Source: Podarcis liolepis
Taxonomy: Eukaryota
DNA: 64,000 bases
Strand: one strand, 5' to 3'
Assembly (NCBI GenBank): GCA_965112155.1
Contig: OZ218099.1
Shown here one piece after another: positions 16,701 through 19,700 of the stretch. Every line of letters begins with the position of its first letter. The first letter of the stretch is position 1. Under the pieces are notes generated by a model. It saw nothing but the letters and a program-made list of their open reading frames with translations. It made no database searches and was not told the origin of the DNA. A program made the position numbers and the translations under genes.

Positions 16701-19700
16701 ATCACATCCAGAGAAAATCTGAAGGGTGCAAGAGAAACGATGAATCTAAGAAGAGTAGATCTGTGGCTCAGAGATACTCTAGAATCTAGTCTGGTTCTAA
16801 GTTAGGAATAAGGCCAGGCCTCAAGATGTGTATCAATTTTAAGGTACTCTTTAATTTTTGCACATTATACCTGATCTAGATAGTCATAGCTTCTGTGTTT
16901 GGTTTTGCCCAACTCAAATGCTTAACCATAACGGACCAAGACTCTGCGAAAGCATCCTGGGAAACACTTCTACATTCAAACAGAAATGGCTATAGATTGC
17001 AAGGAACCATCAGAAAAGAAGTATATTCAGGCCCTTTGAGCTTACACTGTTTTGATAAACACACTTGTTGAAATGTGCATCAAGTGAAGTGATGCCATGA
17101 ATGGGTTACCTGCAAGCAGCCTCCTGTACTCTCTTGTTGCTGTCAAGAATCCGCTTGAGCAGCTCTGTCATCAGAGGCTTGAGATACATGTCTGGGGGTT
17201 GGCTCACAACCCAGTGGGCATAACGGCTCAGGGTCCAGCAGGCAATGGAGCGCACTAGGGCCTTCTTGTCAGAGAGACATTGGATCAAGTGGGGAATCAA
17301 TTCAGGGAGGTAGGGAACCATGCCCTGCATGCAGCCTAGAAATGCAAGAAAATACGTTCAGCATACTTTTTAGGCATATCAGAGGGCTGCCAAATTCTTG
17401 TTCACATGAAGTTGCTGCCAATGCCTTCCCCTTTTTGCAAATGCAAACCCCTAGTTTAAGTGATACAATTATAGAACTCACCTTCAGCAATGGCCCCTAG
17501 AACGAGGATTCCGGACTCCTTGATGACCCACTCGGGGTGGAAGAGTAGCCCCTTGAGCAGCGGGAGCAGGTGTGGGAGGAGCTCATCTCTAAAGACATTG
17601 GCCAAGACATCAAGGGCAGCAGCAGAGCATTTTCCTGTAGGAGACATGGGGCTATGTGGTAGAATCTGCACAGAGCACCAGTGGGAAAGCTTTGGTCCAT
17701 GAGCCAAATTAGGCCCATAAGGTCTCCCAATTTGTGCCTTATTGTTCCTTTGCATTCCTGAACTTGCGCTGTTTATGTTTGGGGCTGAATATGAGCCTCA
17801 CTGCTTTGGGGCACAACTGGCTCCACTCAGGAGCTGCCAGCTGGATTTCATTCCTCCTTATGCCTCAGATGGTCATAAGGCAGAGGTGACTGACAAATCT
17901 GGTGTGTGGAGCCTTGGCTGCTATTTGATCCCACTCTCCAGCATAAAGTGACTCCCTATGCATTGCACAGAGTAAGCTCTGTGGGAACCAAGAGTCTTTT
18001 AGGGAAGAGACAAGCAGGAAAAAAGCACTTGCTTTAGGATAAACATGCAAGGCAGAAAGTATCTTTTAGGGGTAAGAAAACCCCAAGCTGTGCAATTCCA
18101 GCAACTCTATTAAACAAGAACTATCTTTTTAACAAGAAATAAAATTGGGCCATTGAATAAGCTCCTTCGGTGTGTATCTTCTTCCCACATAAGAGTCTAA
18201 AGAATCAGGCCAATGGCCCATCTTGTCCAACAGCCTGTTCCCACAGTGGCCAACCAGATGCTTGAGGACAGTCTACAAGCAGGACATAAGCACAACACTT
18301 TGCCCACCTGCGATTCTCAGCAATTGGTATTCAGAGGCATTTGCCCCATACCATCCCAAATGAAAAGAAATGGTATCTAGTCAGTTATGTGCCCAGTGCT
18401 CCATTCTACTAGCTCCTGGCATCCTCATAGTTGACACTTTCCCATCTCAAAAGCACTGCACAACTCTTCCCCTACTCACTCAGATTCCAGTCAGATAGCG
18501 TGTCATCGTCGTCATCCTCATCCTCTCCATCTTCATCATCCTGTAGCCGTTCCTCCTCATGCTGCAGGGTAACCGTGCGTGATTTGTGGAAACGAGGCTT
18601 GATATCCTGCTCACTGTCAGGGATGGCTTCATCCTCTTCCACATCACCCTGAAATTGAGTAGGGGGAGCACATGGAAGCCCATTTAATACTGAGTCTCGT
18701 CTGCCAGGGAAATGAGCTCTTGCAAAACAGTACAATATTTCTTGTTCTTGGTGGGATAGTTACTTAATGCCAAAATAAACCCTGGCAAAGAATGATAACC
18801 CTCCAGTCCTCTTGGGACTCTTCACATCATGCATCCATGGATCAGACAGGACGAATACAACAACCCATCACAGTTGTCAGGCTGAAGGTTATGCATCATT
18901 TCCAAGAATGCATATGCTTGGCCACTGACTTGGGAGGGTGCAAGCATGTATGAATTTCAATTGAAAAGTTAGACTTATACCAAATGGGGCAAAACATAGT
19001 TAAAGTCACCAGGGGGGTTTTGCAGCCAAGAAACGCAGAAAAAGTGTTTTAACTCAGCTGATCAAGCCCATAACCCTAGTCTGTAATCTTAGGAAGAACT
19101 TTTCTTATAAAGACATGGTTATTCAGTCAGCATATAGGTGCGGCTCATGATGGAACTTGCAGGAGTTCCAGTGAAAGCCCCCAGCACCACAGACCCAGCT
19201 TCAGTAGAACAGAACTAGTACATTTAAAATGCCAACTACATAAGAAGGGGATCGGTAGTCACTCGGTATGCTCAATTTTAGGAATACGACAAGGAATAAT
19301 TTACAGCCTTATGGAATGAGGCTCCTCAACTATCAGAACTGAAAGGGCAAAGTTTCATTGTTGCGGAAGATTTGCCAACCATACTGCCATGCACTGTGCC
19401 TGTAAGGATGGTCAGCAGCAAGAGTGGGGTAAGGATGAATGAGATTCTAGATGTTACAACACAGAATCCTTTTCATTTGTTATGCTCAGTAAACAAGTTG
19501 CGACAGAGGAATGTAAAACCCAGAAGAAGGTGGAAATACATATTGTATTAAATCCTAAATTGGAAACAATACCTTTAACAATATGATGTCAATTTCAGAA
19601 TACTTCATTCCATTCACCAAAATTGGAATCAATCTGTTAAGGAGAAGGAGTAGAAAAAGTGATTCACCAAGTGGGTCCTGGGGCAAGAATGACATAAGAC

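What the first reader, a model, noticed from the sequence alone, without database searches (positions are those of the whole stretch)
18829..18913. SNORD41 paralogue changed exactly at the methylation-specifying position
Seen: the canonical copy in intron 12 reads TATTCGT-A-CTGT-CTGA and this copy reads TATTCGT-C-CTGT-CTGA. The one core difference (18850 vs 16654) is the fifth nucleotide upstream of box D. Established: that position pairs with the residue to be 2'-O-methylated, a 28S uridine for SNORD41. This copy keeps better C'/D' boxes than the canonical one and has a distinct D' guide ATAACCTTCAGC. Inference: a decoy or chaperone that binds but cannot methylate the 28S site, a guide retargeted to an RNA containing CAGGACGAAUACA, or an RNA now working through its D' guide.
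Basis: partly seen in the sequence, partly recalled or inferred. Interest (0 to 1): 0.7.

Follow-up and report, generated by a model that had tools for sequence, protein, structure and literature searches.

The report
Spare SNORD41 copy with fixed mismatch
A second copy of a small RNA that normally marks one ribosomal RNA base for methylation carries a change, shared with related species, at exactly the pairing position, so it would likely still grip that site without methylating it, while the intact copy nearby likely does the job.

Summary
A box C/D RNA gene derived from SNORD41 (18837-18905, minus strand, transportin intron) has C at the fifth base before box D, where the intact copy 2.2 kb downstream has A. 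All 73 matching sites in tandem rDNA-like arrays have U opposite, so this copy makes a C·U mismatch. The C is not an assembly error: two other species labels cleanly share it, and four more runs probably do. The rest looks intact: boxes D, D' and C', a 16-bp terminal stem, and a predicted 28S duplex as stable as the intact copy's. No new target beats chance. The best candidate is a 9-bp duplex on 28S G1194, matched by 29 of 300 shuffles. The D' guide has no target in rRNA or five snRNAs. Constraint could not be shown (0 of 18 variable sites, P about 0.16), and expression rests on one weak contig. Multi-copy SNORD41 in TNPO2, guide loss by a single base, and conserved +5 mismatches (in archaea) are all published. 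Verdict: most likely a redundant paralogue that lost its methylation role; a selected non-methylating binder remains possible.

The parts
18837..18905 (-). SNORD41-derived box C/D RNA (copy B, the finding), in coding intron 9 of the transportin gene (intron about 18649-19572), about 190 nt before the 3' splice site
   Evidence: Rfam RF00588 38.0 bits, E 4.5e-4; intron bounds; single copy in the genome
18893..18899 (-). Box C, AUGAUGC (last base off consensus)
   Evidence: sequence
18881..18892 (-). D' guide; no target found above chance
18877..18880 (-). Box D', CUGA (perfect)
   Evidence: sequence
18865..18871 (-). Box C', GUGAUGG
   Evidence: sequence
18846..18860 (-). D guide; pairs the 28S site at -2..-4 and -6..-14, with a U:G pair at -15
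18850..18850 (-). D+5 base, C instead of A; C·U mismatch with 28S U3267 (numbering of the Rfam-bounded 28S in L026)
   Evidence: unchanged in runs X9 and X20
18842..18845 (-). Box D, CUGA
   Evidence: sequence
18901..18917 (-). 5' arm of the terminal stem
   Evidence: 16 bp, -18.0 kcal/mol; 1st percentile of 2000 random pairs from the gene is -15.6
18824..18841 (-). 3' arm of the terminal stem
16641..16711 (-). Intact SNORD41 (copy A) in coding intron 12 (about 16443-17109); 11 contiguous Watson-Crick pairs with the 28S site, A at +5 (16654)
   Evidence: Rfam 48.3 bits, above cut-off
4670..30054 (-). Host gene coding span, transportin (karyopherin beta-2) family, read as TNPO2
   Evidence: exon translations; exon 12 matches Transportin-1 chains at E 1e-45; TNPO2 rather than TNPO1 is inferred from SNORD41 hosting and recalled synteny

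Best explanation
This is an old intronic duplicate of SNORD41 with a C at the methylation-specifying base, shared across related lizard species, and it is likely a redundant copy that has lost its 28S methylation role while the intact copy three introns downstream likely supplies it. Shown: the boxes, the terminal stem, the mismatch with this genome's 28S, and the presence of the base in other species labels. Inferred: the RNA is still cut out of the transportin intron and bound by box C/D proteins. Inferred: it can still pair with the 28S site, because the predicted duplex is as stable as the intact copy's. Inferred from the published rule that a Watson-Crick pair at +5 is needed: it does not methylate that uridine. 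The change would have been tolerated because a second guide exists, which makes this an early stage in the birth and death of snoRNA copies rather than a new function.
For: Only 2 SNORD41 copies are credible among 5 genome matches at E<=10; the other three have E 0.27-7.2. The intact copy pairs 11 bp without a break, so the modification is covered. The two copies align only in the boxes and the 3' guide region, with no flank similarity, so the duplication is old. Copy number in this host gene is fluid: human has SNORD41 plus SNORD41B/ZL2 (PMC1636440 passage; PMC4053766 passage and supplement rows), and Xenopus tropicalis has five copies on one scaffold (PMC6984369 supplement rows). Loss of guide activity by one base in otherwise conserved snoRNAs is published (PMC6984369 section 10). 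The +5 pair is described as essential (PMC6009581 passage). No alternative target beats chance in 28S, 18S, 5.8S, U1, U2, U4, U5 or U6. Box C has also drifted by one base.
Against: No decay is visible yet. 0 of 18 variable intron sites in five DNA runs fall in the 58-nt core (P about 0.16), which fits continued constraint but does not show it. D' and C' are better than in the intact copy, the stem is long, and distal pairing to 28S is longer. The single lesion in the guide core sits at the one base that removes catalysis, which matches guides whose mismatch is conserved in archaea. One possible RNA contig lies over the copy.
Confidence: 0.55

Rival explanations
1. A selected non-methylating binder. 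The RNP is kept because it pairs with the 28S site, either helping it fold or competing with the intact copy and tuning the level of methylation.
For: Predicted duplex -15.1 vs -14.7 kcal/mol for the intact copy. Boxes and stem are intact. The C is shared with runs X9 and X20. Precedent: four conserved N+5 mismatches in Pyrobaculum, one of them C:U (PMC6009581 passage), and 16 of 262 double-guide archaeal sRNAs (PMC4644070 passage).
Against: The archaeal cases shown in detail have a second, productive guide nearby; here the D' guide has no target. The species compared differ by only about 1.3-4%, too little to show selection.
Confidence: 0.2
2. Target switch by point mutation. The C lets the D guide pair from -2 to -10 with another 28S site and methylate G1194 (L026 numbering; about human G1536 in the old numbering, mapped from recall).
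For: Best rule-conforming duplex found: 9 bp with one G:U, -12.7 kcal/mol. With distal pairs it reaches -15.1, against -14.5 for the ancestral site in the same scan. With A at +5 the site would be mismatched. Such switches are published.
Against: 29 of 300 shuffled guides do as well or better. No guide is listed for that human position among the rows matching '28S-G15', and the same table records strong predicted pairings that proved unmethylated.
Confidence: 0.12
3. The RNA now works through its D' guide, or through the D guide on an mRNA or other RNA.
For: Perfect D' box and good C' box; no variant listed in the D' guide in five DNA runs.
Against: Best rule-conforming D' matches are 7 bp in 28S and 6 bp in U5. 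The best pre-rRNA duplex is matched by 23 of 40 shuffles. There are 181 exact 12-mer matches genome-wide, about the 188 expected from uniform base frequencies, with no tandem cluster among the first 100 listed. Only 4 dispersed 13-mer matches exist for the D guide besides the copy itself; 3 of the 4 were viewed and none was recognisable as a structured RNA.
Confidence: 0.06
4. The copy still methylates the ancestral uridine at reduced efficiency despite the C·U pair, so it is a weak backup guide.
For: The flanking helix is long: 3 + 9 Watson-Crick pairs plus a wobble. From recall, not read here: eukaryotic guide duplexes tolerate some irregularities.
Against: Published statements call the +5 Watson-Crick pair essential in vivo and in vitro. 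The primary paper could not be opened.
Confidence: 0.05
5. Assembly error or private variant.
For: In one search the table of differences was cut (42 rows hidden). Each of the four runs has one unlisted G>T place, the kind of change a canonical base at 18850 would give.
Against: Run X9 spans the whole stretch in one contig, with all 9 differences listed and none at 18850; run X20 has no G>T change. These are different species labels and studies from the likely source sample.
Confidence: 0.02

Closest known systems
SNORD41 (U41; Rfam RF00588), guide for 28S Um4276
   Same: Same host gene family, box layout and guide; pairs the same 28S site.
   Different: C instead of A at D+5; box C one base off; 38.0 bits, below the gathering score of 41.
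Human SNORD41B / ZL2 and Xenopus snoRD41a-e
   Same: Extra SNORD41 copies at the same host locus. Human ZL2 also has an imperfect last base of box C and is well expressed.
   Different: Human ZL2 keeps A at +5. All five Xenopus copies are assigned the target uridine, but their sequences were not seen. Which of these copies sits in the same intron as this one was not determined.
Pyrobaculum sRNA guides with a conserved N+5 mismatch (e.g. sR33 D' guide, C:U)
   Same: Mismatch exactly at the methylation position inside an otherwise kept duplex; proposed to bind without modifying.
   Different: Those are conserved over six species, and sR33 has a productive second guide nearby. Here the second guide has no target, an intact paralogue exists, and conservation is shown only among close relatives.
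SNORD69 and X. laevis SNORA28, guide loss by a point mutation
   Same: One base change removes a guide activity while the RNA stays conserved.
   Different: Those RNAs keep another known target; none was found here.

Membership tests
Box C/D snoRNA | Box C and box D at the ends | tested here: met
   AUGAUGC (6 of 7) and CUGA
Box C/D snoRNA | Internal D' and C' boxes | tested here: met
   CUGA and GUGAUGG
Box C/D snoRNA | Terminal stem and intronic, sense position | tested here: met
   16-bp stem, -18.0 kcal/mol, beyond the 1st percentile of random pairs; about 190 nt from the 3' splice site. The whole-molecule fold z-score is only -0.63.
Box C/D snoRNA | Accumulates as a mature RNA | tested here: inconclusive
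   One 157-nt contig at depth 2.3, from a run guessed to be RNA, lies over the copy; contigs cannot show ends or strand
Box C/D snoRNA | Binds 15.5K, NOP56/58 and fibrillarin | not testable with these tools
   needs immunoprecipitation
SNORD41 methylation guide | Rfam RF00588 gathering score | tested here: not met
   38.0 vs 41 bits, E 4.5e-4
SNORD41 methylation guide | Complementarity to the 28S U4276 region | tested here: met
   12 Watson-Crick pairs of 13 from -2 to -14
SNORD41 methylation guide | Watson-Crick pair at D+5 with the target uridine | tested here: not met
   C·U; 73 of 73 array sites carry U; 13 rDNA loci read as 28S
Conserved N+5-mismatch (non-methylating) guide | Mismatch shared across species | tested here: met
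   Window plus runs X9 and X20 clean; four more runs probable
Conserved N+5-mismatch (non-methylating) guide | Guide conserved beyond neutral expectation | tested here: inconclusive
   0 of 18 variable sites in the core, P about 0.16
Conserved N+5-mismatch (non-methylating) guide | Second guide with a nearby productive target | tested here: not met

The most novel reading that the evidence does not exclude
A vertebrate snoRNA paralogue kept by selection as a non-catalytic partner of its sister. It would load the full C/D machinery, bind the SNORD41 site of 28S as tightly as the true guide, and set the methylation level or folding there; or the same single change would have moved it to a lizard-specific methylation at 28S G1194.
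Probability: 0.3. Interest if true: 0.65.

Novelty: new variant of a known kind. Interest (0 to 1): 0.33.

Why it matters
If it is ordinary decay, this is a tidy example of how spare snoRNA copies die, and it warns that family annotation overcounts working guides. If it is kept on purpose, it is a natural matched pair in one gene, a catalytic and a non-catalytic guide for the same site. That would allow a direct test in a vertebrate of whether box C/D RNAs matter for binding apart from methylation, an idea proposed from archaeal comparisons.

Tried and rejected
Expression from raw reads: runs X23 (17 reads laid, exon depth about 14) and X21 (2 reads) gave no intronic reads at all. No read ends marked the copy, and the intact copy was outside that stretch, so there was no positive control; this says nothing either way. 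No listed holder was on record as RNA. The intact copy had no cover in the four runs, so its variation could not be compared.

Metagenome pattern scan: 120 stretches, mostly chance matches. Five snoRNA-shaped hits, picked by eye, all had A at +5. Rfam assigned none of 14 loci tested to SNORD41, though two lie beside U14 and snoR53Y. No vertebrate orthologue was recognised there.

Further copies in the gene: none with a box C besides the two.

D' guide against tRNA-like sequence: 514 matches. The 8 viewed are mostly a tRNA-derived repeat and none is an ARAGORN tRNA at the match; pairing is 8-9 bp. Rejected. tRNAs, U11, U12, U4atac, U6atac, 5S, 7SL, 7SK and mRNAs were not scanned systematically. 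The D' guide at the 5.8S/ITS2 junction gives -11.1 kcal/mol, chance level.

The first 18S used had a 277-nt gap; the scan was repeated on a full 1820-nt copy.

Intron position of the human copies: the paper with TNPO2 coordinates was not held, so positional orthology is open.

Print searches: SNORD41+TNPO2 (4 papers), SNORD135 (1), ZL2/snoRNA/U4276 (5), snoRNA/SNORD41/Xenopus/paralog (229, 20 listed), RiboMeth-seq+lizard+snoRNA+28S (0). None of the listed titles concerns a lizard SNORD41 copy; subscription journals are not covered. Chicken snoRNA supplements had no hit. Three supplementary files of PMC4053766 were not searched, and the figure supplements of PMC6984369 were not seen; they may hold orthologue sequences. 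Earlier scan findings: nothing.

Full report
Observation. The guide-plus-box-D pattern occurs twice in the 64-kb window, both on the minus strand, against 0.06 expected by chance. Rfam calls the copy at 16641-16711 SNORD41 above cut-off (48.3 bits) and the copy at 18837-18905 just below (38.0 vs 41, E 4.5e-4). The fifth base before box D is A at 16654 and C at 18850. Both copies lie in introns of a transportin gene, in coding introns 12 and 9, about 200 and 190 nt before the 3' splice site. Reading the gene as TNPO2 is inferred from SNORD41 hosting in human and Xenopus and from recalled synteny. A genome-wide family search gave 5 matches at E<=10, of which only these two are credible, and the stretch is single-copy.

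Anatomy. The copy has box C AUGAUGC (one base off), a 12-nt D' guide, a perfect D' box, C' GUGAUGG, a 15-nt D guide and a perfect D box. Its terminal stem has 16 pairs at -18.0 kcal/mol, stronger than the 1st percentile (-15.6) of 2000 random pairs from the same gene; the fold of the whole 101-nt region is not unusual (z -0.63). The two copies align only in the boxes and the 3' guide region, with no flank similarity. The duplication is therefore old, and this copy must have been under selection for most of its history (inference).

The target. A 13-base pattern allowing either base gave 89 genomic matches. By my count 73 lie in tandem arrays of mostly 17-18 kb period, and all have the uridine form. 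11 more are dispersed with the same form. 5 have the guanosine form: the copy itself and 4 dispersed sites. Thirteen rDNA loci were read directly as 28S. So no rDNA variant compensates for the change. The intact copy pairs 11 bases without a break. This copy pairs -2 to -4, mismatches C·U at -5, then pairs -6 to -14 with a wobble at -15. Predicted duplex energies are -15.1 and -14.7 kcal/mol, so binding should persist. Published passages state that a Watson-Crick pair at +5 is essential (PMC6009581; PMC4644070); the primary paper was not held.

Is the base real and shared? Of 24 runs listed, 8 were laid. Run X9 (organism E) spans 18560-19240 in one contig with 9 substitutions, all listed, and one insertion; none is at 18850 or inside 18837-18905. 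Run X20 (organism F, RNA is a guess) has a 157-nt contig at depth 2.3 covering 18755-18901 with 6 differences. Four are listed, one of them at guide position -15, and none is G>T, so it also has the C; the other two were not placed. Runs X7, X3, X4 and X5 (organisms A-D) span the copy with no row at 18850, but that table was cut (42 rows hidden). Each run has one unlisted G>T place, and each spanning contig has 1-4 unaccounted differences. I infer these lie in the high-copy repeat at 18200-18340, where all four contigs begin and where no rows are shown, but this is not proven. An assembly error or private variant is excluded by X9 and X20.

Is it constrained? Across the five DNA runs I count 18 listed variable sites in intron positions 18650-19240. 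None is in the 58-nt core and one is in the stem (18904, organism C). The chance of none in the core is about 0.16. The species are too close (about 1.3% for E, about 4% for F) to decide, and no distant reptile genome was reachable.

Is it expressed? In X20 the only intronic contig in the stretch lies over the copy, with one end two bases before box C and the other running towards the 3' splice site, while the exon is at depth 86. That shape would fit a 5'-trimmed, 3'-extended precursor. But contigs cannot show ends or strand, and the depth is 2.3, so it is a hint only. The two raw-read runs were uninformative.

New targets. Scanning this genome's 28S, 18S, 5.8S, U1, U2, U6, U4, U5 and a full-length 18S, the best rule-conforming site for the changed D guide is 28S G1194: 9 bp with one G:U, -12.7 kcal/mol. 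The change at +5 is what completes this duplex, and with distal pairs it ties for best in pre-rRNA, but 29 of 300 shuffled guides do as well. The D' guide has at most 7 bp in the mature RNAs; its best pre-rRNA duplex is matched by 23 of 40 shuffles; and its 181 exact genomic matches are about the chance number.

Comparison with what is known. Extra SNORD41 copies in this host gene are published: human SNORD41B/ZL2 (PMC1636440 passages; PMC4053766 passages and supplement rows) and five copies plus an orphan C/D RNA in X. tropicalis (PMC6984369 supplement rows). Loss or switch of guide activity through one base is published for vertebrate snoRNAs (PMC6984369 section 10, read whole). Mismatches exactly at +5, some conserved across species and read as binding without modification, are published for archaea (passages). 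PMC8609340 (passages) confirms the target as 28S-U4276, equivalent to yeast U2729. PMC7038934 (passages) gives the fifth-base rule. PMC11014333 (passages) added nothing. The copy fails two tests for a working SNORD41 guide (the +5 pair and the Rfam cut-off), so I file it as a SNORD41-derived box C/D RNA, not as a working member. I found no report of this lizard copy in the searches listed under Tried and rejected.

Verdict. A real, species-shared, mechanistically sharp substitution, most likely (0.55) in a redundant paralogue that has stopped guiding methylation and may still bind unproductively. A selected non-methylating binder (0.2) and a switch to 28S G1194 (0.12) are open and cheaply testable. 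Every ingredient has precedent and no function is shown, so interest is modest (0.33).

Noticed in passing
L026 (G000:C15:61000-70900), 18S at about 6282-7824: This rDNA unit's 18S has a 277-nt internal gap compared with three other units of 1820 nt. Unit spacing in the arrays varies mostly between about 16.8 and 18.0 kb. Assembly slip or real deleted units.
   Followed up: partly
window 21190-21255 (-): C/D-shaped stretch with a 6-bp stem in coding intron 7 of the same gene; no Rfam support and an ordinary fold. Xenopus tnpo2 has an orphan C/D RNA, but no link was shown.
   Followed up: partly
window 18200-18340: High-copy repeat in the intron downstream of the exon that follows the finding; summed contig depth in the tens of thousands or more.
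   Followed up: no
L026, 28S position 3562 (Rfam-bounded numbering): The intact copy also pairs 9 bp with a second 28S site; a second 28S uridine was predicted for human ZL2. The changed copy mismatches there too.
   Followed up: no
L165-L172: A tRNA-derived repeat family with hundreds of near-identical heads; it looks like the squamate Sauria SINE (name recalled, not tested).
   Followed up: no
L128, L139: Metagenome snoRNA clusters with U14, snoR53Y and an unassigned C/D RNA carrying the SNORD41-type guide with A at +5.
   Followed up: partly
window about 49400-50200 (-) and 61161-61502 (+): Neighbouring exons that read like TRIR and GET3/ASNA1 (names recalled, not searched).
   Followed up: no
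window 46226-46289 (-): Another C/D-shaped stretch with a 5-bp stem from the motif scan; no Rfam hit at gathering level.
   Followed up: no
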